DNA of 64,000 nucleotides from Bacteroidales bacterium (GTDB taxonomy: Bacteria; Bacteroidota; Bacteroidia; Bacteroidales; UBA12077). Below, piece after piece: positions 8,954-51,009 of this stretch. Below the pieces are notes generated by a model. It did no database searches. It was not told where the DNA came from and saw only the letters and a program-made list of their open reading frames with translations. Position numbers and translations under genes: made by a program. Positions within the stretch are counted from its first letter, which is position 1. Every line of letters starts with the position of its first letter. The stretch covers positions 28,941 through 92,940 of the forward strand of contig WTBR01000043.1 in assembly GCA_013138975.1 (NCBI GenBank), given 5' to 3'.

Positions 8954-10789
8954 ATGACTCATAGAAATAAATTTATCGTAAAATTAATTCACTGTGGAAA
9001 TAATAACCCTGTGAATCTTAATGATAAAGCACAAAAGAATATGTTTTTTATGCCCATGGGTTTACTCATGTTGGCAGAGGCTTTGAATAAGGAAAATTAC
9101 GATGTAGAGGTAATTCATTCAGATATTGAAACTGATTCACTGGACGATATTTTGGACTTTAACAATATCAATGCCATTGGGTTTGATTGTCATTGGATAA
9201 ACCAAAGTTTGGCTATTCTGGAAACAGCAAAATACATTAAAGAAAAGAATAGTTCAATTTTTATTTTCCTGGGTGGATTTTCTGCAAGCTTATTTTATTC
9301 TGAGTTATTAACAGAATACGACTATTTCGATGCAATAATTAAAGGAGATGGAGAGAAACCATTACTGGAATTATGTAAAGTATTAAGTGAAAATCTAAAG
9401 GAGGAACAGACTGAAGTAAACCTTGATTTAAAGAGCGTTTCTAATTTAGTATGGAGAGAAAACGGTAATGTTATCGATAATAAAACGGATTATATTGCTT
9501 CATCTCAGGATGTAGAAGATTATACTTTTGCAAAATTTGATTTACTAAAAAATTGGGAGTTCTATAGAGATTTATCGAATTACTATTCGCATTTCAAACC
9601 AATTAGTGAACACCCAATGTATTTACTGGAAATAGGCAGGGGATGTGAAAATTCATGTGCGTATTGCGGTGGAAATAGTGTAGCTCAAGAAAAGATAAAT
9701 AATAGAAGTAATGTATTCTTTAGAAGTATATCTTCAGTAATTGAATCAATTAAAGAATCTTATTCTTATGGATTTCGAGTTTATTATTTTAGTTTAGAGT
9801 GTAAAGAAAGCGATGAATATTATCAACTTTTGTTTCAGGAAATTAAGAAGCTTGATTTACCCATATATGTGGTGTATGGTGCATGGAGATTGCCTTCAGC
9901 TAATATAATTGATCAAATTTCAGCTTGTTGCGAACAATCGGTTCTTGAGATTTCTCCTGAAACTTCAAATGAGTTACTAAGGAAAAAAAATAAAGACAAT
10001 AAGATTTATTTCTCAAACACCCAGCTTGAAGAGTGTTTATCACATATTAAAAGCAAGCAAAATATTAAAGCGCAAATATTTTTTGGATACTATCTCTCAG
10101 GGGATTCTAAAGAAACAATTTTATCTACGATAGAGTATATTTTACATTTATTGGCAAGTTATAATGGAATGGTAGAAATTGAGTACTCTAATTTCTCTAC
10201 CGACCCGGGTTCTTTATATTTCTTTAAACCAGAAAGTTATGATATAAATATTAGTACGAGAAATTTCGATGATTATATCACGAATCTTAAAAGAATGTAT
10301 GTGGATAATAGCGATAATCCGGCTGATATGACCTTGTTTCGTCCAAATACAATTTCGGAAGAGGAATCTCAAAAGATATTCTTACTAATGAGAATATTTA
10401 ATTATATATTCATCACATATCGAAACACGATCACCTTGTATTTTGAGGAAACAGGAGAAATAAACTTTTTATTAAACTTGATAAATAAATTCGATACAAA
10501 AAATCTACTGAATTATGACTCAAAATTAATACAGGACATTTTTGATGAATTATTTTCCATATTTAAACCCACTGGTGAAGAAATACGAATTGTATTTCTA
10601 AGCGAATTTGAAAAATCACACAACAGTCATACTATCTCAAGACCTACCACACAACTATTTATGGATAGTGAATTGGCACATCAGTTTTTGGAACGTTGCG
10701 ATAGATCGATTTTAACAAAATACCAACTTAATATTGAAGGGCAATTAGCCGAACAAAAAGAGAAGGATCAAGGAGATTTTAATTTTTAG
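8954..10789 (+). CDS. B12-binding (class B) radical SAM enzyme
   Basis: The N-terminal B12-binding-like segment reads FFMPMGLLMLAEALNKENYDVEVIHSD...AIGFDCHW...IFLGGFSAS...AIIKGDGEKPLLEL. The CxxxCxxC motif CENSCAYC lies at 9644-9667. It ends ...QGDFNF. Confidence 0.85.
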   Translation: MTHRNKFIVKLIHCGNNNPVNLNDKAQKNMFFMPMGLLMLAEALNKENYDVEVIHSDIETDSLDDILDFNNINAIGFDCHWINQSLAILETAKYIKEKNSSIFIFLGGFSASLFYSELLTEYDYFDAIIKGDGEKPLLELCKVLSENLKEEQTEVNLDLKSVSNLVWRENGNVIDNKTDYIASSQDVEDYTFAKFDLLKNWEFYRDLSNYYSHFKPISEHPMYLLEIGRGCENSCAYCGGNSVAQEKINNRSNVFFRSISSVIESIKESYSYGFRVYYFSLECKESDEYYQLLFQEIKKLDLPIYVVYGAWRLPSANIIDQISACCEQSVLEISPETSNELLRKKNKDNKIYFSNTQLEECLSHIKSKQNIKAQIFFGYYLSGDSKETILSTIEYILHLLASYNGMVEIEYSNFSTDPGSLYFFKPESYDINISTRNFDDYITNLKRMYVDNSDNPADMTLFRPNTISEEESQKIFLLMRIFNYIFITYRNTITLYFEETGEINFLLNLINKFDTKNLLNYDSKLIQDIFDELFSIFKPTGEEIRIVFLSEFEKSHNSHTISRPTTQLFMDSELAHQFLERCDRSILTKYQLNIEGQLAEQKEKDQGDFNF

Positions 10790-29414: not shown

Positions 29415-32400
29415 ATGACGAATTTATCTAAGGAAAATACCACTTTAAATAAAAAAAGAGAAGAAAATAATTATTGGAAGACTCTTTTGTCTGGTATTAC
29501 ATTACCAACATATATACCTGTAGATTCTACTGTAATTAGGGGTGAGGGTGACTATAAGGAATTTAGCATTAATTTAGATGATGAAAGTTCTTCCTTTATT
29601 CTTAAAATCAGTAACAATTCAAACGTTCGTTTGCATATAATTCTTGTTTCGCTTGTAAAAGTATTGTTATATAAATACAGAACCCAATCCGAATTATTAA
29701 GTATAACAACAATCGATAAGCAGGTATCAGACAAAAAAATATTAAATCACATCTTACCATTTAAAACTTTTGTAGCCAAAGACCAATCTTTTAAAGAAGT
29801 TATTTTAGCTGTTAAAGAATCGTTGAAACAAGCATCCGATAACCAGAATTATCCAATTGAAAAGTTGGCAAAATCTATCGAACGACAACTTCAGTTCGAG
29901 AAACCCTACGGCTTATTTAACATAGCTATTCTTTTAGATGGCATGCATGATGAAAAATATTTAGAAGGAATTGATTGTCATTTGCTTTTTAAATTCCGAA
30001 AAATAAACGATAAGATCAATTTAGTTATTAAATATAAGGATGAATTATATACAAAGAATAAGATAGAACGAGTAGCCGGTCATCTGAAAAACATAGCCAA
30101 TTCCATAAGTAACAATATAGAATTACAAGTTAATTCAATCAACTATCTTTCAGAAAATGAAAGCAAAAACTTATTAGAAGGTTTAAATGAAAACATAGAA
30201 CAACCAATTCCGGAATCGATTTACCAAGTTATAAAAGAAAACGCAAAGAAATATGCCCATAAAGTAGCTCTTGTATATAAAGATGAACACATTACATATC
30301 AGGTATTAGACAAAAAGGCTAACAGCATAGCAAAAATATTGAAAATAAAAGGCGTAGTCCAAAATTCAATAGTAGGAGTGCTTGGGAATCGCTCTATGAA
30401 TACCATGTTAAATATCCTCGGAACACTAAAAGCTGGAGGAACCTATTTGCCTATTGATCCTGAATATCCTTTAGATCGAATAAAATTTATGATCGAGGAT
30501 GCAAACATTAAGTATTTATTAGTGGATCCTGAGGTGTATAGTAAGATTGAGATATCTGGTTTATTTGAAGAATTGGAAGATTCCACGGAATTAATACATA
30601 CTCAATGCAGGAGTCAAATTGAGGATTTTAATTCATTACCATTTCCCGATAGGTCGAAAGTGGACTATGACAAGTATAATAAACACATTGGTCAGGCCAT
30701 GGTAAAGAATAGTATTGCTATTCAAGCTACCCGTGGTTGTCCATATGCATGTGCATATTGTCATAAAATTTGGCCAAAGAAACATGTTTGGAGAAGTTCA
30801 GATAATATTTTCGAAGAAATACAGATGTATTACAATCAAGGAATAAAACGATTTGTTTTCATCGACGATATTTTCAATCTGAAAAAGAACAATAGCAAAG
30901 ATTTATTTAAAAAAATTATTGATAAGGGATTAAAAATTCAACTATTCTTTCCTAATGGCTTGCGAGGCGATATTTTAAATGAAGAGCTGATTGACCTTAT
31001 GGTTGAAGCAGGGATGGTTAATGTAGCCCTTGCATTGGAAACAGCATCTCCACGATTACAAAAGCTCATAGGAAAAAACTTGAACCTCGACAAACTAAGA
31101 ACCAACATCAACTATATCTGTGAAAAACACCCACATGTAGTTCTTGAATTGTTTACCATGCATGGCTTCCCAACCGAAACAGAAGAAGAAGCGAATAGCA
31201 CACTCGAATTTATTAAAAGTATTAAATGGCTTCATTTTCCATATGTTCATATCCTGAAAATATATCCTAATACCGATATGTCCAAATTGGCTATTGAAAA
31301 TGGAATATCTTCACTCGATATTGACAATTCGGCAAATTTATCCTATCACGAACTCCCGACCACTTTACCTTTTGAAAAGTCTTTTACTTTAAAATATCAA
31401 TCGGATTTTTTCAATAATTATTTCTTATCAAAAGAACGTTTGATAAAGGTTTTACCGCATCAAATGAAAGTTTTAACCGAGGACGAAATAGTTCAGAAAT
31501 ACAATAGTTATTTACCCGTTAACATAACTAATATTGAAGAATTGCTGGAATTCTTAAAAATTAGTAAAGAAGAACTGGGGGCATTCGAATTTGTTCAGGA
31601 AGATGAGTTTCATGTAAAAGATTTAAATAAAAAACTACAAGCTTGTTTTAAAAAAGATTACGAAGTAGAAAAAAATGCCTTCAAAATCCTTTTACTTGAC
31701 CTGTCACAGAATTTAACTTCCGATGAAGAGATGCTTTACGATGTAGTTGAGCCCCCTTTAGGCTTGATGTACCTCGCCGCATATGTAGAAGGCAAATTCA
31801 GGCAGGATGTTGATGTGCGAGTTTTAAAATCAAAAATTGATTTCGACAACTTTAGCGCTTTAAAGAATATATTAGATGATTTCAAGCCCGACGTAATCGG
31901 AGTCAGGACATTATCCTATTATAAAGAATTTTTTCATGAGACCATATCTAATATTCGTTTATGGAATCCATCGATCCCGATATTAGCTGGTGGGCCTTAT
32001 CCATCGAGCGACTATATGTCAACCCTGAAAGATGGCAACATAGATTTAGTAATTCAAGGAGAAGGAGAATTTACGTTTGGCGAAATTGTCGAATGCATGA
32101 TGAAGAATGATAATAAGTTGCCCGATGAGGAGCAGCTTAAAACCATAGATGGAATCCATTTCATGAAAAAGTCGGTGCTTAAACGTCAGATTATATCCAC
32201 CGATTTTAAGAACATAAACTCTGAACCGGAAGAATTAGCACATATCAATAAACCAGACGATGGCGCATACATTATATATACTTCAGGCACAACCGGTAGG
32301 CCAAAAGGAGTTATGGTATCCCATGAAAATGTTTTAAGCCTGTTAATAAATAACAATCATTTATTTGATTTCAATAAAGAAGATATTTGGTCAGTATTTC

Positions 32401-35400
32401 ATTCCTTATGCTTTGATTTTTCGGTTTGGGAAATATTTGGCAGCTTGTTTTTTGGAGGCAAAGCCATATTAATACCAACCGACATAACAAAAGATCCCGA
32501 TTGTTTCAGGGATGTATTACAAAAAGAAAAGGTTACAATATTAAATCAAACCCCATCATCCTTTTATAATGTTATTAATAAAGAACTTCAAAGCGAAAAT
32601 AAATCATTAAAGTTACGAAGCATCATATTTGGAGGCGAAGCATTGAATCCTTCGAAGTTATCCAAATGGAGAAATTCATACCCCAATGTGAAACTTGTAA
32701 ACATGTTTGGGATTACCGAAACAACAGTACATGTAACGTATAAAGAAATTACCCAAAAAGAAATTGAAGAAGGAATAAGCAATATAGGCAAATCGCTGCC
32801 AACCTCATTAACACTGGTTTTGAATGAAAATATGGAGCTGTTACCAATAGGTATGCCTGGAGAGTTATATGTTGGCGGAAGCGGAGTTTCTTTGGGCTAT
32901 TTAAACAGGACTGAATTGAATTTCGATAAATTTATAAATAAGAATAATGATTATAAAACACAAGTCTATAAAACAGGGGATAAAGTAGTATTAAATGAAA
33001 AATACGAATTAGAATATATAGGTCGAATAGATGAGCAGATTCAACTTCGTGGTTTTAGGATTGAATTAAAGGAAATTGAATCTGAGATGAATAATCATGA
33101 CAAAATTGATAATGCTTATGTTGAACTATTTGAAAAAGACGAAGAAAAATACCTGAGTGCCTATTATGTTTCTAATGAGGAACTAGAAAATGCTGAAATA
33201 AGAAAATTCTTGCAAAAGAGATTGCCTTATTACATGTTACCATCATATTACATAAGAATTGACAATATTCCTTTAACAATTAATGGTAAAATCGATAAGA
33301 AATTATTGCCTAAACCCAGTGTTTTAAACTGCTTGTTCGAAGTTGTTGCTCCTGAAAATGAACTTCAGGTTCATCTGGTCGAAATCTGGAAGAAAGTTTT
33401 ACAGGTAAATAACATAGGAATCGAGGATAGTTTCTTTAATCTCGGGGGCGACTCGATAAAAGGAATAAGGCTTGTAAATGCAATAAATGAAAACTTGGAC
33501 ACCAGGCTTAGAGTAGCCGATCTGTTTAAGAACGATACCATTAGGACACTGAGTTTGATCGTAAAAAATAAAGAAGCAGATCAAGAAAACAATAAAGAAA
33601 CACAGCTTCTAAAAGATTTTGAACAAATAAAAGAAAGCGCCTTTCAAAAAAATATATACAATCAACACGAAATTGAGGATCTCTACCCAATGAGTGATAT
33701 TCAGCGAGGAATGGTTTATCATGCTATAAAAAGTGCTGATAAAGCTGTATACCACGATCAAATGATTCATCAAATAAAGATACCTGATTTCAAACAAAAT
33801 ACATTAAAGGATGCGTTGAAATTAATGAGTCAGAAACACTCCATTTTAAGGGCATCATTTAACATGGAAAATTTTGAAGAATCCAGTATTGTAATTTTCA
33901 AGGAAATAGAAATCGACTATCAGCATGAGGATATCTCCGAAATGCCAAAAGACAGTAAAGTAGAATTCCTGGGTAAATACCTCGAAGACGATAAGAAAAA
34001 GATTCTAAGAACCGACCAAAAAGGCTTATGGAGGTTGAGAACATTTCAGGTAGATGAGAATGAGATTTTCGTTTTATTCGTTTGCCACCATGCCATAATT
34101 GATGGATGGAGTGATGCCTCATTTATTACAGAATTGCATAATTTGTATTTTAAACTTCTTGAAGACATAAATTATGTTCCTGTAAAACTGAAATCGACCT
34201 ATAAAGATTATGTAATTGATCAAACCATTGAAAGAAGCAATAATGAAAATATTAATTTCTGGAAAACAGAACTTTCCGGAGTAAAGAAATACGATGATAG
34301 GTATTTTTTAAATAAGCCACAGATAACTAAAAATGAGTTTAAATTTAGTATAAACGAGCTGGATAGCGATTTAGTAAGTAAGATAAATAAAAAAGGGAAA
34401 GATCTAAATATCAGCCTTAAATCCATTTATCTTACAGCCTTTAGTTTTGCACTAAACATGTTCTCTTTTGAACCTGATTTTGTATTTGGATTAGTTTCAA
34501 ACTCTCGAATCGCAAAACCCGATGGAGATAAAATCCTTGGATGTTTCTTGAACACCTTGCCACTAAAGATAAAATTCTCCTTAGAACAGGAAAATCAGGA
34601 CTTAATGACTTACTTTAATACTAAATTAAATGACCTGAAAAAATACGATTCAATTTCATTGTTCGAGATACTAAAATTTGCAGATCATGAAGGAGCTGAA
34701 AACGCTTTATTCGATATAATATTTAATTATGTCGATTTTCATATCCTTAATCAAATTGATTATACACAGGAACAAAAATCAGGAATTCCTTACCTGGTAT
34801 CCAAACTAACAGGTAATGCACGGGCAGATACCCCATTAAATTTCACGCTCGATACAACAAAAGAAAGTGTTAAGTTTTATTCCTCCTTCGATTCCTCGAA
34901 ATACAGCGAAGAAAAAGTAAAACAAATCCATATTTATTTAGTACGTGCCCTGGAAATACTTTCAGGAGATGATTCTGCCAGCTTATCAAAATCGCAGTTA
35001 ATAGATAAAAACGAGAAACAAGAAATACTAAATACATTAAACAATACCGATACATCATATCCTAAGGATAAAACGATACATCAATTATTCGAAGAGCAGG
35101 CAGAACGAAGCCCTGATAATATAGCTTTGGTATTAGGTTCAGAGTCAATCACATATTCAGAGTTAAATAAGAAATCGAACCAACTGGCACAATATCTGAT
35201 ACATAACGGAGCCTTAGAGAGTGATTTTATAGGGATAATAAACGAACCTGCTATAGAAGTTTACATAAGTATTTTAGCTATATTGAAAACCGGAAAGGCT
35301 TATTTGCCAATAGATAACTCCTTGCCAGATTCGCGAATACAATTCATGTTAAACGATTGTGGGGTGAAAATACTTTTAGCATCGAACCTTAAAACACAAT

Positions 35401-38400
35401 ATCTTGATAATGATAAAAATCCGATTGTTCCAATAAATATTTTTGAAACACTTATAGGAGGTTCAAGTAACTTGAACTTAAAAACCTCTTCGACTAGCCC
35501 TGCATATGTAATTTATACATCCGGCTCAACGGGGAAACCCAAAGGAGTTTTAATTGAGCACAAGTCTTTAGTAAACTTATCTTTTAATCATAATAAATTC
35601 TATGGAATTAAATCCGACGATCGTTTAAGCAAATTTGCTGGCTTTGGTTTCGATGCTTCCGTTTGGGAAATTTTTCCAAGTTTTATTGCTGGTTCATCCT
35701 TATATATTATTGATGAAAATATAAAACCCGATCCGGGGAAAGTAAATAAATATTTCGAGAAGAATAACATAACAGTAAGTTTCTTACCAACACAGTTTTG
35801 TGAGAAATTTATGGAATACGATAATAAATCACTGAAAATATTATTGACAGGAGGAGATAAGCTAAATTATTTTAAGAAAAGAGATTATAAATTATATAAT
35901 AATTATGGCCCTACCGAAAATACTGTTGTTACAAGCAGATTTGAAGTACAGAATTTGGAAAATAATATTCCAATAGGTAAACCAATAGAAAATATTCAAG
36001 TTTATATTTTAGATCGATATTCTCAGGTTCAAGCATTTGGGGTTCCGGGCGAGCTATGTATTTCAGGAATTGGATTAGCGAAAGGATATATTGGGAATGA
36101 TGAATTAAGCGCTGAAAAATTTACTAAGCACCCATTTAATAAAGGAGAACGAATATACCGAACCGGAGATTTAGCATGTTGCTTGCCCGATGGTAATATT
36201 GAGTTTTTAGGTAGGATTGATCAACAGGTAAAGATCCGGGGTTTTAGGATTGAGTTGGGAGAGATTGAGTCGGTTTTGCTTAAACATGAGTATGTTCAAG
36301 AAAGTGTTGTATTAACTAGAGAAGAAACCGGCGATAAACATCTGTGTGCTTACATAGTTTGCAAGGAAGGTTATATTCAGGAAAATCTTCGACAATACTT
36401 ATCAACTTTACTTCCGGATTATATGGTTCCGGCTTATTTTGTGGACTTGGAAGCGCTGCCGATAAGTCCAAGCGGAAAAGTAAACCGCAAAGCTCTACAG
36501 GCTCTTGAGATCGAGGCAGGTGCAGATTATATAGCACCATCGAATGCGATAGAAGAAAAGTTGCTTGATATTTGGTCAGAAATTTTAAATACCCCGGTCG
36601 AAAAAATAAGTGTAATGGCTAATTTTTTCTTAATAGGAGGCCATTCACTCAAAGCTACCGTGTTAGCAAGTTATATACATAAAGAAATAGGGGTTGAATT
36701 TCCTTTAGAAGATATATTTTTACATACAAGCATTAGAGCTCAAGCATGTCAAATAAGAATAAGTAAAAAGACAGAGTTTGTGTCCATACCAAAAACAGAG
36801 GAACAATCAAATTACCCGGTATCTCCTGCACAGAAGCGATTGTATTTTCTACAACAGTTTGATTTGGAGTCAATAGCCTATAATATGCCCAATGTGTTTT
36901 CATTGGGAAAAGAGGCCGATAAAAGAAAAATAGAAGAAGTATTCAAACAACTGATAGATCGTCATGAGAGTTTTCGCACAAGTATTATTGTTGTTGATGG
37001 TGAGCCTGTTCAGTTTATAAGTAAGGAAGTTGAGTTTGAGCTCGAAGAACTGAGTATAACAAACAATGAAGTTGAAAACACACGAAATAAATTCATAAAG
37101 CCTTTTGATTTATCTAACGCACCTTATTTACGAGTGGCCTTAGTAAATATTAAGGGAGAAGATAGCTTGTTAATGATAGATATGCACCATATTATAAGTG
37201 ATGGAACCTCACATATAATCTTAGAGAAAGAATTTCAGACTTTATATTCAGAAAAAGAATTGACTCCATTAAAGTTGCAATACAAGGATTATAGTCAGTG
37301 GCAAAATAGTAACGAGCAGCAAGAGTTTATAAAAGATCAGGAACAATATTGGCTTACTAAATTTGAAGGAGAGATACCGGTATTGAGTCTTCCAATGGAT
37401 TATGTCCGGCCTTTAATGCAAAGTCAAGAAGGAGCAACCGTAAATTTTATCCTGAGCAAAGAAGAAACAGAAGGGATAAGATTATTCAGCAAAGAAAATG
37501 ATCTTACTTTATATATGTCCTTGTTATCTGTATTTAGTATTCTATTATCGAAGCTAAGTGGACAAGATGATATAGTAGTAGGAACACCAATAGCCAGTAG
37601 AAATCATGCAGATTTGGAGAATATAGTAGGCATGTTTGTGAATACACTATCTATACGTAATGCAGTAAAAGGAGAAGAAACTATACGAGATTTCGTATCA
37701 AGCTTAAAGCAAACAGTTCTTGGAGCATACGAAAATCAGAATTACCAATTCGAAGATTTAGTAGGCAAGATTTCAGTAGAGCGAGATACCGGCCGCAATC
37801 CTATTTTCGATGTAATGTTTAATTTGTTGAATCAAGCTGAGTATAATGGATCAATAAATGAAGATATTGATAATAGTCATAAGAAGGGAACATCAAAATT
37901 CGATTTAAATTTAACAGCAATTGAATTTGAAAATAATATATCTTTAAGTATAGAATACAGTACAAGATTATTTAAAGAAGAGACATTAGATCGATTTATA
38001 AACTATTTTAAACAGATAGTAGCTCAATTAACAAGAAAGTCAGAATTAAAAATCTCGGCAATTGATATTCTTACAGAAGATGAGAAACATCAGGTGTTGT
38101 ATGAGTTTAACAATACAAAAGCAGATTATCCAACAGATAAGACAATTCATCAGCTTTTTGAAGATCAGGTAGAGAAAACACCCGAGAATATTGCGTTATC
38201 CTTAAATGGAGAAACCGTCAAATATTCGGAGCTCAATGCCAAAGTAAATCAATTGGCATGGAAACTAAGAGAGCAAGGGGTGAAAAATGATTCAGTGGTA
38301 GGTTTGTTTGTTGAACGTTCCATAGAGATGGTGGTAGGAATTTTGGGGATATTAAAATCAGGTGGAGCTTATTTACCCATAGATACAGAGTATCCTAAGG

Positions 38401-41249
38401 ATAGAATATCCTATATGTTTGAAGATAGTAAGTTGCAAATCTTATTGGTCAATACCGATATTTCAAATCTGAATCTTGAAACAGAGCAATACTTAATTTA
38501 TGATCTTAGGGATGAAAGCAGTTATGCTTCAAATACATCTAATCCAGATGTAATTGGAACACCTGAAGACTTGGTTTATATAATTTATACCTCTGGTTCT
38601 ACAGGTAAACCTAAAGGTGTAATGCTGAAAGACAAGAATATGGTTAATCTCATACAATTTGATTATGACAAGACCAATTTAGATTTTAGCTCTATCTTAC
38701 AATTTTCGACCATTAGTTTTGATGCCTCGGCTCATGAAATATTCGGAGCTTTATTAAGTGGAGGAAAACTTGTTTTAGTTGACGAATCTACACGTTTAAA
38801 TGTAATGGGGATTTTCGAATTAATGACAAAAGAACAAGTTAAAACTGTTTTCTGGCCCATGTCATTAATAAAATTGATATTTGGGGATCAAACTTTTGTT
38901 GATCAAATACCAAAATGCTTACGTCATCTTCAAACTGCAGGGGAAAAGGTTATTATAAATGAGTCGTTAAGAAATTACCTTAAAACGAACAATGTATTTA
39001 TACATAACCATTACGGGCCATCAGAAACCCATGTTGTAACAACTTTAACAATAGCACCGAATGAAGATCATCCGGAATTTCCTACAATAGGTAAACCTAT
39101 TTCAAACACAACAGCTTATATCTTGGATAAGAGTCTCAATCTTGTACCTGTAGGAGTTAAAGGAGAACTTTATTTTGGAGGAACTCAGGTTGGAAGAGGA
39201 TATTTTGGAAAAGAGGAACTTACCAGAGAGAAGTTTATTGAAAGTCCATTTATTAAAGGAGAAAAAATTTATCAAACAGGAGATATAGCACGTTGGTTAC
39301 CTGATGGTAACATCGATTTTTTGGGAAGGGTCGATCACCAAGTAAAGATTCGTGGATTTAGGGTAGAATTAGGCGAGATAGAGAGTGCTTTATTAAAATA
39401 TGAAAACATAAAAGAGATTGTAGTTCTTGCTAGGGAAGAAAAAGGAGACAAGTACTTGTGTGCATATATAGTTAGTACTGAAGAAATTGATCATGAAGAG
39501 CTAAGAGCGTATATGTCGGAACGGCTTCCCGATTATATGGTTCCTTCTTATTTTGTTGTGCTTGAGAGTTTCCCACAAACTGCAAACGGAAAGATAAATA
39601 GTAAAGCTTTGCCGAAACCGGAAATAAAAGAAGGAGACGATCATGTAGCACCATCCGCAGAAATAGAGGAAAAGGTAGTTGAAATATGGTCGGAAGTCTT
39701 AGATATCGATAAAGAAAATATAAGTGTAAATTCTGATTTTTTCTCATTAGGAGGCCATTCCTTAAAAGCGATAGCATTATTATCCAAAATTGAGAAAGAA
39801 TTCTCGGTAAGAATTGCAATGAAAGATTTCTTTGCTAATCCAAGTGTGAAGAAGCTGGGTAAATCGATTTTAAAATCGAAAAAAACTACAAATAATACAA
39901 AACTGGTACCCGTTGAATCGAAGGAATATTATGTAGCATCTATGCCTCAAAAGAGATTGTATTTTATACAAAACCTTAATCCTGCGGATAAAAGCTATAA
40001 TGTTTCTGCTGCCTTTACCATTAAAGGTGAACTTGATAAACAGAAATTTGAAAATGCATTACAACAACTAATAAATCGACATGCAGGTTTAAGGACTTCA
40101 TTCATAATGCTTAATGATGAAATAGTACAAAAAATAAACAATAAGCTTGAACCTCGGCTTACGTACATAAATGAAGATGATAAGGACATTCCCCAAATCA
40201 TTAAAGACTTTATTACACCCTTTGAATTATCTGAAAAATCATTATTTAGAGTTGGCTTGGTTAAAACAAAGAAAAATGATTCGATATTAATTCTGGATAT
40301 GCACCATATTATTTCTGATGAAGTATCCAACAGGATTATATTCGGTGACTTTGTTGATTTTTATAATGGTAAAAAATTAAGCTTGCTGAAAATTCAATAT
40401 GTGGATTTATGCGAGGAGCAGGAGGAAATGAAAAAGCGGGATGTTCTGAATACACAAAAGGTTTTCTGGGAGAATTATTATGATAATTACAATAATGACA
40501 GTTCACTTCCGTATGATCTTAACAAAGACGATCAATTAAAGAATAAAGGAAATATAATATCATTTACTCTTGACGGTTCAATGAATCAGGATTTGATAAA
40601 AATAAGAGAAGAATATAATTCATCCATTTATATTATAATCCTTTCCGTATTTAACATCCTTCTTTCGAAAATTTTAAATCATGATGATATCGTTGTAGGA
40701 TCGCCTATTACTGGGAGAGAAAACCCGGCCTTGAAAAACATCGTGGGATATTTAGTGAATACTTTGGCAATGCGCAGTATTGTTAATGGGGAAGCTAAAT
40801 TTGTTGATTTCTTAAAAATAGTAAACGATAGAACATTAGATGCAATTGATAATAGCAATTACGATACAATAGAATTAATTAATAAAATCAATAAAAGTGG
40901 AAGGAACAAAGGCAAGTCATTATTCGATATAATGTATACATACAATATTGTTGAAAGCAATAAGGCGAGTTTGTCAAACATAAATGTTGAACCATATACA
41001 TTTGATGGATTTTCGTCGCAATGCGATATAAAACTGAGAGTTATGGATAATAAAAATTCCTTATCACTTGCTTTTGAATACAACGAAAACTTATTCCTCG
41101 AAGATAAAATTCATAGATACATTAAGTATTTTAAGAAAATATTAAATGACATTATATTAAATCCTGAAATTACAATTGACGAAATAAATTTAACTTCTGA
41201 AAAAGATGAAGTTAAGCTAATGAATTCTTTAGTAGAAGATTTAGAGTAA
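29415..41249 (+). CDS. trimodular NRPS, half-C - A(interrupted by rSAM/B12 unit) - T - C - A - T - C - A - T - C
   Basis: The N-terminal region is C-lobe-only (NNYWKTLL...). Module 1: A1 has ITYQVL and LKAGGTYLPID, is then interrupted, and resumes with YIIYTSGTTGRPKG, FDFSVWEIF, NMFGITETTVH, YKTGDKV, GRIDEQIQLRGFRIELKEIE, INGKIDKK. T1 is FFNLGGDSI. The first C domain has LYPMSDIQRGMVYH and HHAIIDGWS. Module 2: A2 has YTSGSTGKPKG, NNYGPTENTVV. T2 is LIGGHS. The second C domain has YPVSPAQKRLYFLQ and HHIISDGTS. Module 3: A3 has YTSGSTGKPKG, NHYGPSETHVV. T3 is SLGGHS. The final C domain has YYVASMPQKRLYFIQ and HHIISDEVS. Confidence 0.9.
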   Translation: MTNLSKENTTLNKKREENNYWKTLLSGITLPTYIPVDSTVIRGEGDYKEFSINLDDESSSFILKISNNSNVRLHIILVSLVKVLLYKYRTQSELLSITTIDKQVSDKKILNHILPFKTFVAKDQSFKEVILAVKESLKQASDNQNYPIEKLAKSIERQLQFEKPYGLFNIAILLDGMHDEKYLEGIDCHLLFKFRKINDKINLVIKYKDELYTKNKIERVAGHLKNIANSISNNIELQVNSINYLSENESKNLLEGLNENIEQPIPESIYQVIKENAKKYAHKVALVYKDEHITYQVLDKKANSIAKILKIKGVVQNSIVGVLGNRSMNTMLNILGTLKAGGTYLPIDPEYPLDRIKFMIEDANIKYLLVDPEVYSKIEISGLFEELEDSTELIHTQCRSQIEDFNSLPFPDRSKVDYDKYNKHIGQAMVKNSIAIQATRGCPYACAYCHKIWPKKHVWRSSDNIFEEIQMYYNQGIKRFVFIDDIFNLKKNNSKDLFKKIIDKGLKIQLFFPNGLRGDILNEELIDLMVEAGMVNVALALETASPRLQKLIGKNLNLDKLRTNINYICEKHPHVVLELFTMHGFPTETEEEANSTLEFIKSIKWLHFPYVHILKIYPNTDMSKLAIENGISSLDIDNSANLSYHELPTTLPFEKSFTLKYQSDFFNNYFLSKERLIKVLPHQMKVLTEDEIVQKYNSYLPVNITNIEELLEFLKISKEELGAFEFVQEDEFHVKDLNKKLQACFKKDYEVEKNAFKILLLDLSQNLTSDEEMLYDVVEPPLGLMYLAAYVEGKFRQDVDVRVLKSKIDFDNFSALKNILDDFKPDVIGVRTLSYYKEFFHETISNIRLWNPSIPILAGGPYPSSDYMSTLKDGNIDLVIQGEGEFTFGEIVECMMKNDNKLPDEEQLKTIDGIHFMKKSVLKRQIISTDFKNINSEPEELAHINKPDDGAYIIYTSGTTGRPKGVMVSHENVLSLLINNNHLFDFNKEDIWSVFHSLCFDFSVWEIFGSLFFGGKAILIPTDITKDPDCFRDVLQKEKVTILNQTPSSFYNVINKELQSENKSLKLRSIIFGGEALNPSKLSKWRNSYPNVKLVNMFGITETTVHVTYKEITQKEIEEGISNIGKSLPTSLTLVLNENMELLPIGMPGELYVGGSGVSLGYLNRTELNFDKFINKNNDYKTQVYKTGDKVVLNEKYELEYIGRIDEQIQLRGFRIELKEIESEMNNHDKIDNAYVELFEKDEEKYLSAYYVSNEELENAEIRKFLQKRLPYYMLPSYYIRIDNIPLTINGKIDKKLLPKPSVLNCLFEVVAPENELQVHLVEIWKKVLQVNNIGIEDSFFNLGGDSIKGIRLVNAINENLDTRLRVADLFKNDTIRTLSLIVKNKEADQENNKETQLLKDFEQIKESAFQKNIYNQHEIEDLYPMSDIQRGMVYHAIKSADKAVYHDQMIHQIKIPDFKQNTLKDALKLMSQKHSILRASFNMENFEESSIVIFKEIEIDYQHEDISEMPKDSKVEFLGKYLEDDKKKILRTDQKGLWRLRTFQVDENEIFVLFVCHHAIIDGWSDASFITELHNLYFKLLEDINYVPVKLKSTYKDYVIDQTIERSNNENINFWKTELSGVKKYDDRYFLNKPQITKNEFKFSINELDSDLVSKINKKGKDLNISLKSIYLTAFSFALNMFSFEPDFVFGLVSNSRIAKPDGDKILGCFLNTLPLKIKFSLEQENQDLMTYFNTKLNDLKKYDSISLFEILKFADHEGAENALFDIIFNYVDFHILNQIDYTQEQKSGIPYLVSKLTGNARADTPLNFTLDTTKESVKFYSSFDSSKYSEEKVKQIHIYLVRALEILSGDDSASLSKSQLIDKNEKQEILNTLNNTDTSYPKDKTIHQLFEEQAERSPDNIALVLGSESITYSELNKKSNQLAQYLIHNGALESDFIGIINEPAIEVYISILAILKTGKAYLPIDNSLPDSRIQFMLNDCGVKILLASNLKTQYLDNDKNPIVPINIFETLIGGSSNLNLKTSSTSPAYVIYTSGSTGKPKGVLIEHKSLVNLSFNHNKFYGIKSDDRLSKFAGFGFDASVWEIFPSFIAGSSLYIIDENIKPDPGKVNKYFEKNNITVSFLPTQFCEKFMEYDNKSLKILLTGGDKLNYFKKRDYKLYNNYGPTENTVVTSRFEVQNLENNIPIGKPIENIQVYILDRYSQVQAFGVPGELCISGIGLAKGYIGNDELSAEKFTKHPFNKGERIYRTGDLACCLPDGNIEFLGRIDQQVKIRGFRIELGEIESVLLKHEYVQESVVLTREETGDKHLCAYIVCKEGYIQENLRQYLSTLLPDYMVPAYFVDLEALPISPSGKVNRKALQALEIEAGADYIAPSNAIEEKLLDIWSEILNTPVEKISVMANFFLIGGHSLKATVLASYIHKEIGVEFPLEDIFLHTSIRAQACQIRISKKTEFVSIPKTEEQSNYPVSPAQKRLYFLQQFDLESIAYNMPNVFSLGKEADKRKIEEVFKQLIDRHESFRTSIIVVDGEPVQFISKEVEFELEELSITNNEVENTRNKFIKPFDLSNAPYLRVALVNIKGEDSLLMIDMHHIISDGTSHIILEKEFQTLYSEKELTPLKLQYKDYSQWQNSNEQQEFIKDQEQYWLTKFEGEIPVLSLPMDYVRPLMQSQEGATVNFILSKEETEGIRLFSKENDLTLYMSLLSVFSILLSKLSGQDDIVVGTPIASRNHADLENIVGMFVNTLSIRNAVKGEETIRDFVSSLKQTVLGAYENQNYQFEDLVGKISVERDTGRNPIFDVMFNLLNQAEYNGSINEDIDNSHKKGTSKFDLNLTAIEFENNISLSIEYSTRLFKEETLDRFINYFKQIVAQLTRKSELKISAIDILTEDEKHQVLYEFNNTKADYPTDKTIHQLFEDQVEKTPENIALSLNGETVKYSELNAKVNQLAWKLREQGVKNDSVVGLFVERSIEMVVGILGILKSGGAYLPIDTEYPKDRISYMFEDSKLQILLVNTDISNLNLETEQYLIYDLRDESSYASNTSNPDVIGTPEDLVYIIYTSGSTGKPKGVMLKDKNMVNLIQFDYDKTNLDFSSILQFSTISFDASAHEIFGALLSGGKLVLVDESTRLNVMGIFELMTKEQVKTVFWPMSLIKLIFGDQTFVDQIPKCLRHLQTAGEKVIINESLRNYLKTNNVFIHNHYGPSETHVVTTLTIAPNEDHPEFPTIGKPISNTTAYILDKSLNLVPVGVKGELYFGGTQVGRGYFGKEELTREKFIESPFIKGEKIYQTGDIARWLPDGNIDFLGRVDHQVKIRGFRVELGEIESALLKYENIKEIVVLAREEKGDKYLCAYIVSTEEIDHEELRAYMSERLPDYMVPSYFVVLESFPQTANGKINSKALPKPEIKEGDDHVAPSAEIEEKVVEIWSEVLDIDKENISVNSDFFSLGGHSLKAIALLSKIEKEFSVRIAMKDFFANPSVKKLGKSILKSKKTTNNTKLVPVESKEYYVASMPQKRLYFIQNLNPADKSYNVSAAFTIKGELDKQKFENALQQLINRHAGLRTSFIMLNDEIVQKINNKLEPRLTYINEDDKDIPQIIKDFITPFELSEKSLFRVGLVKTKKNDSILILDMHHIISDEVSNRIIFGDFVDFYNGKKLSLLKIQYVDLCEEQEEMKKRDVLNTQKVFWENYYDNYNNDSSLPYDLNKDDQLKNKGNIISFTLDGSMNQDLIKIREEYNSSIYIIILSVFNILLSKILNHDDIVVGSPITGRENPALKNIVGYLVNTLAMRSIVNGEAKFVDFLKIVNDRTLDAIDNSNYDTIELINKINKSGRNKGKSLFDIMYTYNIVESNKASLSNINVEPYTFDGFSSQCDIKLRVMDNKNSLSLAFEYNENLFLEDKIHRYIKYFKKILNDIILNPEITIDEINLTSEKDEVKLMNSLVEDLE
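30540..32180 (+). other. radical SAM + B12-binding-like unit embedded in adenylation domain 1 (between core motifs A2 and A3)
   Basis: The insert lies in-frame inside the 29415 CDS. A2 (LKAGGTYLPID) is at ~30427-30460. The radical SAM motif ATRGCPYACAYC has its CxxxCxxC at 30738-30761. The Rossmann/B12-type segment (FKILLLDLSQ...PPLGLMYLAAYVEG...VIGVRTLSY...ILAGGPYPS...DLVIQGEGEFTFGEIVE) is at ~31680-32160. A3 (YIIYTSGTTGRPKG) is at ~32263-32310. Boundaries are approximate. Confidence 0.75.
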
Positions 41250-49332: not shown

Positions 49333-51009
49333 ATGAATATTTTACTCGGATTATTACCTTTTTGGGATCCTCAAATTCCACCATTAGGGATTGCATGCTT
49401 AAAAAGTTATTTAAATAAAAATGATCTTGATGCAGTTTGTTTTGATTTAAACACCAAAATAGAATTTCGAAATATTTACGATAAATATTTTAGTGTCTTA
49501 AATCGAGTAATCCCCGAAGACAAAAAAGGGAACATTTACAATATTGGAAATCAGGTTGTAAGAAATCATCTCACAGCACATTTGCATGTTGAATCTCAGG
49601 AAAAGTATTTTTTGGTTTTAGGAACCTTGGTTTTAAATACTTTTTATACCAAACTTGAGAATGATGATTATATTGAGTTAATAAATATTGTTAAAGAATA
49701 TTATGTATTACTTGAAAAAGCAATACGTGAATTATTCCTTAAGCATAAACCGACAATATTTGGTTTATCAGTGTTTGGTGATACATTAGGACCATCAATT
49801 TTTGCTTTTAAATTGGCAAAAGAAATAAACCCTGAAATAAAAACGATAATGGGTGGAGGTATTTTTGCCGATCAGCTAGCGCCAAATTCTCCTAATCTTG
49901 AGTATTTTATGAATTATTCTCGCAGTTTTATCGATAAGTACGTTATTGGTGAAGGCGAAGAGCTATTTCTTGCATTTGTTAAAGACGAAATTCCGGAAGA
50001 TGAAATTGTATTATCAAAGCAAAGCAGTGGAAACTATCTGAGTATTGATGAATTGAACGTTCCTGTTTATGATGATTTTGAACTTAAACATTATGCTCAT
50101 GTTGGATTTTATGGGGCAAGAAGTTGTCCATTTCAATGCAATTTTTGTTCTGAAACAATTAATTGGGGAAAATATCGAAAAAAGGAGATAGACAAAACAG
50201 TAAGTGAATTTAAATTATTAAATGAGAAGTATAATAATCAATTGTTTTTATTGACCGATTCAACATTAAATCCTGTTGTTACTCCACTTTCAGAAGCATT
50301 AATAAAAGCTGATTTTACAGTGTATTGGGATGGATTTTTAAGAGCCGACAAACACGTTTGCAGTGAAGAGAATACTATACTATGGAGAAAAGGCGGGTTT
50401 TATAGAGCTAAATTGGGCTTAGAAAGTGGATCTCAGCGTATGTTGGATTTAATGAATAAATCAACATCAGTTGAAACCTATAAAAAAGCGCTAGCCAGTC
50501 TCGCCTTCGCAGGAATAAAAACAACAACATTTTGGCTATTTGGATTCCCCGGTGAAACAGAGGAGGACTTTCAAAAAACACTTGACTTTTTAGAAGAGTG
50601 TAAAGATTATATATACGAGGCCGATTGTAATGCTTTTAATTATTTCGTATCAGGTCAGGCAAATTCAGATGATTGGTTGCAAAATAGCACAAGTTCAGCG
50701 CTATTCCCGGAATGGACAAGAGAATATTTTATTACACAAACAAATGTATTGGATAGTTTACCTTCCAGACAAGATGCCTATTCTCGGGTCAATCGTTTTA
50801 TGGAACATTGTAAAAAACTAGGAATACCTAATCCATATTCTTTAACAGATATTGATAAGGCAGATAAACGATGGAAAAGCTTACATCTTAATGCTGTTCC
50901 TGCCTTAATGGATTTTAAAAGTAATACATATATAGATGAATGTAAAGATGTAAAACAATATACGTTTACATCAGAAGTCGATACAGAAGATTTTGAGTTT
51001 GATCTTTAA
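49333..51009 (+). CDS. B12-binding (class B) radical SAM enzyme (paralog of 5854 gene)
   Basis: The N-terminal segment is LLPFWDPQIPPLGIACLKSYL...IFGLSVFG...KTIMGGGIF...YVIGEGEELF. The CxxxCxxC motif CPFQCNFC lies at 50125-50148. It is collinear with the 5854 protein to the C-terminus (NPY..AD.RWK.LH.NAVP). It ends ...TEDFEFDL. Confidence 0.85.
   Translation: MNILLGLLPFWDPQIPPLGIACLKSYLNKNDLDAVCFDLNTKIEFRNIYDKYFSVLNRVIPEDKKGNIYNIGNQVVRNHLTAHLHVESQEKYFLVLGTLVLNTFYTKLENDDYIELINIVKEYYVLLEKAIRELFLKHKPTIFGLSVFGDTLGPSIFAFKLAKEINPEIKTIMGGGIFADQLAPNSPNLEYFMNYSRSFIDKYVIGEGEELFLAFVKDEIPEDEIVLSKQSSGNYLSIDELNVPVYDDFELKHYAHVGFYGARSCPFQCNFCSETINWGKYRKKEIDKTVSEFKLLNEKYNNQLFLLTDSTLNPVVTPLSEALIKADFTVYWDGFLRADKHVCSEENTILWRKGGFYRAKLGLESGSQRMLDLMNKSTSVETYKKALASLAFAGIKTTTFWLFGFPGETEEDFQKTLDFLEECKDYIYEADCNAFNYFVSGQANSDDWLQNSTSSALFPEWTREYFITQTNVLDSLPSRQDAYSRVNRFMEHCKKLGIPNPYSLTDIDKADKRWKSLHLNAVPALMDFKSNTYIDECKDVKQYTFTSEVDTEDFEFDL

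What the first reader, a model, noticed from the sequence alone, without database searches (positions are those of the whole stretch)
30738..32160. Embedded unit has the reverse domain order (rSAM then B12) of its three free-standing paralogs
In the free-standing enzymes the B12-type Rossmann segment is N-terminal, and the CxxxCxxC follows at residue 276 (5854 gene), 231 (8954 gene) or 265 (49333 gene). In the embedded copy the CxxxCxxC comes first, at NRPS residue 442 and ~65 aa into the insert. The B12-type segment comes last, at NRPS residues ~756-900, just before the A domain resumes.

I infer one of two explanations. The insert may be a circular permutation that brings its termini together so it can sit in an A-domain loop. 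Alternatively it may descend from a different rSAM lineage than the free-standing enzymes. Either would be informative about how large inserts are tolerated in A domains.
Basis: partly seen in the sequence, partly recalled or inferred. Interest (0 to 1): 0.6.

Follow-up and report, generated by a model that had tools for sequence, protein, structure and literature searches.

The report
Permuted B12 radical-SAM unit inside NRPS
A peptide-assembly enzyme carries a complete radical-SAM/vitamin-B12-type enzyme spliced into its amino-acid-activating domain with its two halves in reversed order; this order is a true circular permutation shared by a large, undescribed enzyme family, and its cut point puts the two ends side by side, which fits a loop insert.

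Summary
In the 3944-aa NRPS (29415..41249), about 549 aa (aa 377-925) sit between adenylation motifs A2 and A3. The order is CxxxCxxC/radical-SAM core, helical region, then a Pfam-significant B12-binding Rossmann domain. The three free-standing enzymes in the window have B12 first.

The unit is a genuine circular permutant of class B radical SAM enzymes: a doubled copy aligns without a break across its own junction to classical models. It is also a separate lineage, only 23-31% identical to the window's paralogs in short segments.

It belongs to a large family (over 150 clusters at 50-62% identity). Most members are embedded at the same junction: A2 to the cluster is 104 aa in 127 of 165. Others are stand-alone ~550-aa proteins in NRPS/PKS clusters, so the permutation is not special to this copy.

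The cut appears to lie in the turn of the beta-hairpin that follows the Rossmann fold, so the ends should be adjacent. AlphaFold models are confident and keep the A domain intact. Which state came first is unresolved.

The likely function is cis-acting, cobalamin-dependent C-alkylation of PCP-bound threonine. I found no publication. Earlier runs of this scan noted the same design in other genomes.

The parts
29415..41249 (+). NRPS gene (3944 aa): half-C, A(rSAM-B12), PCP, then two further C-A-PCP modules and a terminal C domain; the protein ends '..VEDLE'
30198..30542 (+). N-terminal part of the interrupted adenylation domain (aa ~262-376), with A2 motif LKAGGTYLPID at aa 338
30543..32189 (+). 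Embedded unit (aa ~377-925, about 549 aa) between A2 and A3
   Evidence: Alignment with uninterrupted A domains; 100% self-match and family matches
30591..30722 (+). N-terminal strand of the unit (LIH, aa 393-395; proposed second strand of the split hairpin) and the pre-cluster segment R.QI.DF..LPFPDRS
   Evidence: DSSP strand E16-18 in the model; aligned with the hairpin and linker of classical enzymes
30723..31214 (+). Radical SAM core (Pfam 437-600), with CPYACAYC at aa 442-449 (nt 30738-30761)
   Evidence: C65, C69 and C72 are invariant in 87 sequences
31377..31646 (+). Helical region (aa ~655-744), equivalent to the C-terminal domain of class B enzymes plus the new linker that joins the old C- and N-termini
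   Evidence: Helices 278-367 of the model; class B models align up to insert residue ~303, for example HpnJ profile position 443 of 472
31680..32165 (+). B12-binding-type five-stranded Rossmann domain (aa 756-917), with GGP and GEGE motifs; it ends with strand IHFM (aa 914-917; proposed first strand of the split hairpin)
   Evidence: Pfam PF02310 at 779-891; matches to the TokK and CysS Cbl-binding domains; model strands; invariant residues G482, G483, P484 and G505, E506, G507, E508
32190..33314 (+). Resumed adenylation domain (aa 926-1300): A3 YTSGTTGRPKG at aa 955 and A10 NGKIDKK; specificity code DFWNIGMVHK
5854..7560 (+). Free-standing classical (B12 then rSAM) enzyme, 568 aa, cluster at aa 276; 37% identical to the 49333 protein; ends GDFAF
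8954..10789 (+). Free-standing classical enzyme, 611 aa, cluster at aa 231, TIGR04190-like (179.7 bits, below the cut-off); ends GDFNF
49333..51009 (+). Free-standing classical enzyme, 558 aa, cluster at aa 265; ends EDFEFDL

Best explanation
The insert is one member of a large, distinct family of circularly permuted class-B-type radical SAM enzymes. Their order is rSAM core, helical domain, linker, then B12-type Rossmann domain.

The cut lies in the turn of the beta-hairpin that in classical enzymes joins the Rossmann domain to the rSAM domain. The N- and C-termini of the unit would then be the two neighbouring strands of one hairpin. The whole ~545-aa enzyme could therefore hang from the A2-A3 loop of an otherwise intact adenylation domain.

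The same unit, with the same breakpoint, also occurs in other forms:
- as a stand-alone ~550-aa protein in NRPS/PKS clusters;
- with a leftover A-domain N-terminal fragment;
- fused to a PCP or to a C domain.

The reversed order is therefore a family trait and not an adaptation of this copy. It is unrelated to the three classical B12-first enzymes encoded nearby. The embedded architecture probably arose once, because the junction is identical across homologs, and it has been excised repeatedly. Whether the permutation came before or with that first insertion is not resolved.

The function is inferred and not shown. The unit probably acts in cis on the amino acid loaded by its own module, predicted here to be threonine. 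The most likely reaction is a cobalamin-dependent radical C-methylation or alkylation of the PCP-tethered substrate.
For: Shown by tools:
- Domain order and significance.
- Permuted matches to class B models, and continuous alignment across the junction of a doubled sequence.
- The hairpin is continuous in classical enzymes and split in permuted ones. DSSP strands at residues 16-18 and 537-540 of the model fit this.
- AlphaFold model of the unit: pLDDT 92.6, pTM 0.91.
- AlphaFold model of the A domain plus unit: pLDDT 90.9, pTM 0.90. An intact A-domain structure (4d56) superposes at a TM-score of 0.91 (normalised to target length) over 1027 alignment columns that span the insert.
- Family size: 1222 representative proteins at E<=1e-30. 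The best 150 cover the full unit at 49-62% identity, and apart from a few short or variant forms (a 670-aa unit-PCP fusion, ~725-aa relic forms, contig-end fragments) they lie in multi-module proteins of up to 7929 aa.
- About 85 stand-alone proteins of 529-601 aa at 46-58% identity. Their contexts are confirmed as separate genes inside NRPS/PKS clusters.
- The permuted family is one clade against 11 classical enzymes: SH-aLRT 99 for the whole length, 92 for B12 only, 100 for rSAM only.
- Free versus embedded needs 13 changes on the tree, of which at least 6 are forced by well-supported branches.
- A2 to the cluster is 104 aa in 127 of 165 embedded homologs, and the cluster to A3 is 508-533 aa.
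- The ~725-aa stand-alone forms keep an A1-A2 relic with the same 104-aa spacing.
- 40 columns are invariant across 87 sequences, including the three cluster cysteines and the GGP and GEGE motifs. The insert is more conserved than its A-domain flanks.
- Sequence and fold relatives include the cobalamin enzymes TokK, CysS, TsrM, MgmA and OxsB.

From the literature and PDB entries:
- The title of the CysS crystal entry names a pantetheinylated substrate analogue as the bound ligand.
- Class 1 Cbl-rSAM enzymes have a five-stranded Rossmann fold followed by a beta-hairpin (PMC13331322).

Other support:
- The A-domain code DFWNIGMVHK is the canonical threonine code. That assignment rests on my own knowledge of the Stachelhaus code.
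- The genome has two cobalamin riboswitches.
Against: - No coordinates were available, so the N-to-C distance and the pairing of the two terminal strands are inferred and not measured.
- Cobalamin binding cannot be read from sequence. The best PDB sequence match is AprD4. As far as I know from memory, that enzyme has a B12-like domain but acts as a cobalamin-independent dehydratase.
- No NCBIfam class B model reaches its cut-off; the best is 107.7 bits against a cut-off of 575.
- Embedded homologs sit in A domains with many different specificity codes: Thr-, Pro-, Ile- and Leu-type and others. A single common chemistry is therefore not obvious.
- The root of the family is unresolved.
- No CbiD gene was found in the genome.
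Confidence: 0.75

Rival explanations
1. The permutation arose together with the first insertion into an A domain, because only a unit with adjacent termini can be a loop insert. All stand-alone permuted enzymes would then be secondary excisions.
For: - The insertion junction is identical in almost all embedded homologs, so most of the 13 or more state changes must run from embedded to free.
- Relic forms with an A1-A2 fragment prove that such excisions occur.
- Free clades are nested among embedded ones in the midpoint-rooted tree.
- All five stand-alone contexts examined lie in NRPS/PKS clusters.
Against: - The root is unresolved with classical outgroups.
- A tail-less stand-alone clade (P0247, P0251 and relatives) has a long, fully supported stem and could be basal.
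- A permuted gene must exist, at least transiently, before it can be inserted.
Confidence: 0.35
2. This is not a true permutation. An rSAM enzyme lost its N-terminal B12 domain and later acquired an unrelated B12-binding domain at its C-terminus.
For: - The domain-level trees are poorly resolved among the classical enzymes.
- The best-scoring NCBIfam models differ for the two halves: Sden_1168, PhpK and ApyD for the rSAM half, KedN5 for the B12 half.
Against: - Single classical models align continuously from the B12 domain through the linker into the rSAM core across the junction of the doubled sequence.
- The breakpoint splits one hairpin exactly.
- In both the B12-only and the rSAM-only tree the nearest classical enzymes are drawn from the same loosely resolved set (L008, L009, the 8954 protein), never the 5854/49333 type.
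Confidence: 0.08
3. The unit is a radical SAM enzyme that does not use cobalamin and does not methylate. It could be, for example, an AprD4-like dehydratase or an epimerase, with the Rossmann domain serving only a structural role.
For: - The best PDB matches by both sequence and fold are to AprD4.
- The diversity of host A-domain specificities would suit chemistry at a position common to all amino acids.
- No class B family cut-off is reached.
Against: [quoted passage not shown]
- It holds invariant GGP and GEGE motifs under strong conservation.
- The genome senses cobalamin, with two riboswitches.
Confidence: 0.25
4. The insert is an inactive relic, or a chance or assembly artefact.
For: None found.
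Against: - The reading frame is uninterrupted.
- 40 residues are invariant, including the cluster cysteines.
- The same genome holds four diverged copies, and hundreds of homologs occur across phyla.
Confidence: 0.02

Closest known systems
Class B (class 1) cobalamin-dependent radical SAM enzymes: TsrM, TokK, CysS, OxsB, MgmA
   Same: The unit has a CxxxCxxC radical SAM barrel, a C-terminal helical region and a PF02310-type five-stranded Rossmann domain with GGP and GEGE motifs. It matches these enzymes by sequence and by fold. The CysS crystal entry title names a pantetheinylated substrate analogue as ligand, which suggests a carrier-tethered substrate.
   Different: The domain order is circularly permuted, with the Rossmann domain last. 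No curated family cut-off is reached. The unit is embedded in another enzyme's domain. The searchable reviews describe only N-terminal Rossmann domains, apart from Mmp10.
Interrupted adenylation domains (A-M-A and others; Labby, Watsula and Garneau-Tsodikova 2015, seen in a reference list)
   Same: An auxiliary tailoring enzyme is spliced between core motifs of an otherwise intact A domain. From my own knowledge, the a2-a3 site is one of the two known sites for methyltransferase inserts.
   Different: The known inserts are class I SAM methyltransferases, ketoreductases or oxidases of roughly 300-450 aa. This insert is a ~545-aa two-cofactor (4Fe-4S and B12-type) radical enzyme. I found no paper that describes it.
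Mmp10 / DUF512 class of Cbl-dependent radical SAM enzymes
   Same: The cobalamin-type domain lies C-terminal to the radical SAM domain (PMC13331322).
   Different: Mmp10 uses a modified four-stranded DUF512 domain and is not a permutant. The domain here is the canonical PF02310 five-stranded Rossmann fold.
Trans-acting Cbl-rSAM C-methyltransferases of NRPS pathways (DscE of discodermin)
   Same: This is radical C-methylation chemistry tied to a nonribosomal peptide pathway, which the authors call an 'unusual enzyme combination' (PMC12858407). The three free-standing enzymes of this window are of this kind.
   Different: DscE is a separate protein and was shown in vitro to methylate isolated discodermin. 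I take it to have the classical domain order, which I did not check. The unit here is covalently built into the module.

Membership tests
Radical SAM superfamily | CxxxCxxC cluster motif and a PF04055 core above the cut-off | tested here: met
   CPYACAYC at aa 442. PF04055 scores 73.3 bits against a cut-off of 29.5. The three cysteines are invariant in the family.
Class B / class 1 cobalamin-dependent radical SAM enzymes | A Rossmann-type B12-binding domain (PF02310) in the same polypeptide | tested here: met
   PF02310 scores 45.6 bits against a cut-off of 32.1 at aa 779-891. [quoted passage not shown] The model has five strands.
Class B / class 1 cobalamin-dependent radical SAM enzymes | [quoted passage not shown] | tested here: not met
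   The order is rSAM 437-600, then B12 779-891. There is no N-terminal Rossmann fold.
Class B / class 1 cobalamin-dependent radical SAM enzymes | Score above the curated cut-off of a named class B family (NCBIfam) | tested here: not met
   The best score is Sden_1168 at 107.7 bits against 575. PhpK scores 103.6 against 600, and KedN5 scores 64.2 against 700.
Class B / class 1 cobalamin-dependent radical SAM enzymes | Binds cobalamin and transfers methyl through methylcobalamin | not testable with these tools
   Class B enzymes bind Cbl base-off without a conserved ligand motif (PMC13331322). This needs biochemistry.
Circular permutant of class B enzymes | Co-linear alignment of a classical model across the junction of a tandemly doubled sequence | tested here: met
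   KedN5 aligns 404-768 to profile 17-359. TIGR03975 aligns 468-785 to 149-436. TIGR04428 aligns 463-800 to 83-419.
Circular permutant of class B enzymes | The same three-dimensional arrangement of domains as the unpermuted enzymes | tested here: inconclusive
   The model is confident (pTM 0.91). Foldseek aligns sequentially and covers only the rSAM half, at 230-300 columns. No coordinates were available.
Interrupted adenylation domains | The A domain is complete on both sides of an insert placed between core motifs | tested here: met
   A2 is at aa 338 and A3 at aa 955, and A4 to A10 motifs are present. The model superposes on an intact A domain at a TM-score of 0.91, normalised to target length.
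Interrupted adenylation domains | The insert is one of the described auxiliary types (class I methyltransferase, KR, Ox) | tested here: not met
   The insert is Radical_SAM plus B12-binding. No Methyltransf, KR or oxidase hit was found.
Mmp10 / DUF512 class | A C-terminal four-stranded DUF512 Cbl-binding domain | tested here: not met
   The C-terminal domain hits PF02310 and has five strands. No DUF512 hit appears in Pfam at E<=0.1.

The most novel reading that the evidence does not exclude
The permuted rSAM-B12 unit is a self-contained 'plug-in' radical alkylation domain of assembly lines. One ancient cut in the hairpin turn made its ends adjacent, and one insertion into the A2-A3 loop created a composite A(rSAM-B12) domain. 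That composite then spread across at least ten phyla of mostly anaerobic bacteria and adapted to many amino-acid specificities. It has repeatedly been released again as a trans-acting enzyme with a docking tail. On this reading it is an undescribed class of NRPS tailoring domain, and it would install C-methyl or alkyl groups on unactivated carbons of carrier-bound residues.
Probability: 0.4. Interest if true: 0.8.

Novelty: new variant of a known kind. Interest (0 to 1): 0.62.

Why it matters
Radical C-methylation of unactivated carbons is hard chemistry. So far it has been linked to ribosomal peptides, or to trans-acting enzymes of NRPS pathways. An in-line version built into the adenylation domain would be a new tailoring-domain type for assembly lines.

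The hairpin-turn breakpoint gives a concrete structural rule for how a 545-aa two-cofactor enzyme can be tolerated as a loop insert: the termini are neighbouring strands. The same unit occurs embedded, half-excised and free. This suggests it is portable, which is useful for engineering and for genome mining of anaerobes.

For this particular finding, the practical answer is that the reversed order is real and explicable. It is a trait of the whole family and not a peculiarity of this gene.

Tried and rejected
- **Second B12 segment before the cluster.** Rejected. Only about 65 aa lie there, and they match the pre-cluster linker.
- **Recent origin from the three neighbouring enzymes.** Rejected. 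Identity is 23-31% over short segments, and the clades are separate.
- **Rooting the family with 11 classical enzymes.** The base is a polytomy with long outgroup branches, so polarity is unresolved.
- **Foldseek as a test of the two-domain arrangement.** Its sequential alignment covers only one half, so it is uninformative on this point.
- **Mean-field DCA on 316 units to detect pairing of the two terminal strands.** The top scores were gap artefacts at the ends, so I discarded it.
- **Candidate natural 'split A domain' forms (L053, L072, L031).** These turned out to be in-frame stops or masked N runs and not real fissions.
- **The ~725-aa forms as split A domains.** Rejected. The next gene starts a new, complete A domain.
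- **Literature.** Six full-text searches found no paper that describes a radical SAM/B12 insert in an A domain or a permuted class B enzyme.
- **N-to-C distance.** It could not be measured because the structure tool returns no coordinates.
- **Organism name.** It is withheld by the tools. The nearest homolog is from a Clostridiaceae MAG at 62% identity.
Full report
**Observation**

The window (31% G+C) is one long hybrid NRPS/PKS cluster. The gene at 29415..41249 encodes a 3944-aa NRPS. Pfam on its first 1500 residues gives the following:
- a half condensation domain at 13-254;
- an AMP-binding domain in two pieces;
- Radical_SAM at 437-600 (73.3 bits);
- B12-binding at 779-891 (45.6 bits against a cut-off of 32.1);
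- AMP-binding resuming at residue 920 at profile position 132.

The only CxxxCxxC in the protein is at residue 442, which is nt 30738.

The A2 motif is at residue 338 and the A3 motif at 955, which is 617 residues apart. In three uninterrupted A domains of the window the distance is 75-78 residues. Alignment with those domains places the insert at about residues 377-925.

The three free-standing genes have their cluster motif at residues 276, 231 and 265, with the B12-type segment in front.

No Rossmann segment precedes the cluster: the 65 residues there match the pre-cluster linker of class B models. The C-terminal segment is B12-binding-related, both by Pfam and by matches to the cobalamin domains of TokK and CysS.

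**Is it a circular permutation?**

The evidence says yes.
- On its own, the insert matches NCBIfam class B models in swapped order. Residues 22-254 match profile positions ~244-478, and residues 404-542 match positions 17-154.
- I scanned the insert written twice in tandem. The KedN5 model then aligned in one stretch from residue 404 of the first copy to residue 215 of the second, covering profile positions 17-359. The TIGR03975, TsrM-type and MtaB models also crossed the junction.
- An alignment of re-ordered family members with 11 classical enzymes locates the cut. Classical enzymes have a continuous hairpin after the Rossmann fold, for example 'LVYKKNGQCVFN'. In the permuted family the first strand ('GIHFM', aa 914-917) is the C-terminal end of the unit. 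The second strand ('LIH', aa 393-395), followed by the R.QI.DLD.LP.PDR segment, is its N-terminal end.
- DSSP on the model shows strands at exactly these places.

My inference is that the termini of the unit are the two neighbouring strands of one hairpin. I could not measure this, because the structure tool returns no coordinates.

**Structure**

With an alignment of 87 sequences, AlphaFold2 gives pLDDT 92.6 and pTM 0.91 for the unit. With 59 embedded homologs, it gives pLDDT 90.9 and pTM 0.90 for the A domain plus unit, residues 262-1300.

Foldseek superposes that second model on an intact A domain (4d56) at a TM-score of 0.91, normalised to the target, over 1027 alignment columns. In the model, then, the A domain is whole and the unit is an excursion from one loop.

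The unit alone matches AprD4, MgmA, TsrM, RimO/MiaB, OxsB and CysS. Only 230-300 columns align in each case, as expected when a sequential aligner meets a permutant.

**A separate lineage, and a large one**

The three neighbouring enzymes are only 23-31% identical to the unit over short segments. The 5854 and 49333 proteins are 37% identical to each other. The 8954 protein belongs to another subfamily, TIGR04190-like.

An exhaustive search of 1.8 billion representative proteins found 1222 at E<=1e-30. The best 150 all cover the full unit at 49-62% identity. Apart from a few short or variant forms (a 670-aa unit-PCP fusion, ~725-aa relic forms and contig-end fragments), they lie inside multi-module proteins of up to 7929 aa, and several hold two copies.

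A length-restricted search found about 85 stand-alone proteins of 529-601 aa at 46-58% identity and about 95% coverage. I checked four stand-alone contexts. All are separate genes inside NRPS/PKS clusters, and often lie next to a classical B12-first enzyme. Variants fused to a PCP (P0141) or to a C domain (P0254) also exist.

Distribution:
- The window's own genome has four embedded copies, 52-58% identical to each other. One sits in a 12,621-aa open frame.
- Species-representative genomes with the unit come from Clostridia, Aminicenantes/Acidobacteriota, Bacteroidales, Omnitrophota, Desulfobacterota, SAR324, Ignavibacteria, Elusimicrobia, Planctomycetes, Spirochaetes and Chloroflexi.
- Only 2 of 36 sampled congeners, and none of 24 other families of the same order, have it.

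The pattern is patchy and consistent with cluster transfer.

**Phylogeny**

The permuted family is one clade apart from the 11 classical enzymes. SH-aLRT support is 99 for the whole length, 92 for the B12 segment only and 100 for the rSAM part only. The 5854 and 49333 proteins are never its nearest neighbours.

Within the family (271 units), the free versus embedded state needs 13 changes, and at least 6 are forced by well-supported branches. The backbone is star-like, and with classical outgroups the root falls in a polytomy.

**Direction of change**

The junction is the same almost everywhere. A2 to the cluster is exactly 104 residues in 127 of 165 embedded homologs (range 101-119), and the cluster to A3 is 508-533 residues. 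This holds although the host A domains carry very different specificity codes and cluster by code. It argues for one insertion event, so most state changes must be excisions.

Direct relics exist. Recurrent ~725-aa proteins consist of an A1-A2 fragment with the same 104-residue spacing, the unit, and a short acidic-aromatic tail. The next gene begins a new, complete A domain.

I put it at about 0.35. It is not specific to this copy, and it cannot be shown with the present rooting.

**Function (inferred)**

The unit is under strong constraint. There are 40 invariant columns, including the three cysteines and the GGP and GEGE motifs of the Rossmann domain. It is more conserved than its A-domain flanks: 62% against 48% identity to the closest homolog, and the invariant columns concentrate in the insert.

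The A domain keeps its core motifs. Its ten specificity residues read DFWNIGMVHK. To my knowledge this is the canonical threonine code; I derived the positions from the GrsA numbering as I remember it.

Three observations bear on mechanism:
- The insert sits at a site known for methyltransferase inserts.
- The title of the CysS crystal entry names a pantetheinylated substrate analogue as the bound ligand.
- Cbl-rSAM methylases are already linked to NRPS products, as with DscE (PMC12858407).

The most likely mechanism is therefore cis-acting radical C-methylation or alkylation of Thr-S-PCP. I put this at about 0.5.

The main rival is cobalamin-independent chemistry of the AprD4 type, since AprD4 is the best PDB match. 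The genome has two cobalamin riboswitches but no CbiD gene, which suggests cobalamin uptake and not synthesis.

**Comparison with the known**

The unit works like a class B radical SAM enzyme and like an interrupted A domain. It fails one defining feature of each: the N-terminal position of the Cbl domain, and the insert type.

The one characterised enzyme with a C-terminal Cbl domain is Mmp10, which uses a different four-stranded DUF512 domain.

Six full-text searches found no description of this design.

Earlier runs of this scan noted the same architecture in eight genomes, and one reached the same conclusion about the permutation. I treated those notes as leads and re-tested the points independently here.

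**Verdict**

This is a new variant of known kinds: a circularly permuted B12-type radical SAM unit used as an in-line NRPS domain. I rate interest at about 0.6.

Noticed in passing
window C-termini of genes 1049-5572, 5854-7560, 7603-8766, 8954-10789, 15009-18899, 24549-28979, 49333-51009; also L047, L031, L092: Many proteins of the cluster end in an acidic-aromatic tail: SDFRF, GDFAF, EDFNF, GDFNF, DDFQF, ADFDF, EDFEFDL. These include megasynthase subunits, the three classical rSAM enzymes and a U32-like protein. The interrupted NRPS ends VEDLE instead, and most stand-alone permuted rSAM enzymes elsewhere end FNDDLE[DN]E. The same two tail types recur in clusters from other phyla. They are probably docking tails that recruit trans-acting enzymes and order the subunits.
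   Followed up: partly
window 29415-30180, 18931-19650, and the ends of 15009-18899 and 24549-28979: NRPS subunits end with a complete condensation domain. The next subunit then starts with an extra half condensation domain (Pfam profile positions ~190-456) in front of its A domain. This could be the partner of the C-terminal tails.
   Followed up: no
window 41453-45937: This is a second interrupted A domain of a different kind. The A domain is degenerate, with A3 replaced by 'YYYLQSTKDGLQ'. A KS-AT linker and an acyltransferase domain (active site GYSFG, aa ~253-649) are inserted at about profile position 245.
   Followed up: partly
L092:5802-10175 and L093:8001-10184 (other genomes): Recurrent ~725-aa stand-alone proteins consist of an A-domain N-terminal relic (A1-A2), the permuted unit and a '..YDF' tail. 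They occur in tandem and are followed by a gene that starts a new A domain. They look like half-excised forms of the embedded unit.
   Followed up: yes
own genome contigs C152, C95, C63 (L005-L007): Three more embedded copies lie in other NRPS genes of the same 6.8-Mb genome, one in a 12,621-aa open reading frame. Only 2 of 36 sampled congeners carry the unit.
   Followed up: partly
window 7603-8766: A peptidase-U32-family protein (387 aa) lies between two classical rSAM genes and carries the same DFNF tail. From my own knowledge, U32 proteins act in oxygen-independent hydroxylations, so it may be a further anaerobic tailoring enzyme.
   Followed up: no
L012-L088 (embedded homologs): Host A domains of the unit carry very different specificity codes: Thr-type 12, Pro-type 13, Ile-type 3, a Leu type and several unknown types. 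The unit tree partly follows these groups.
   Followed up: partly
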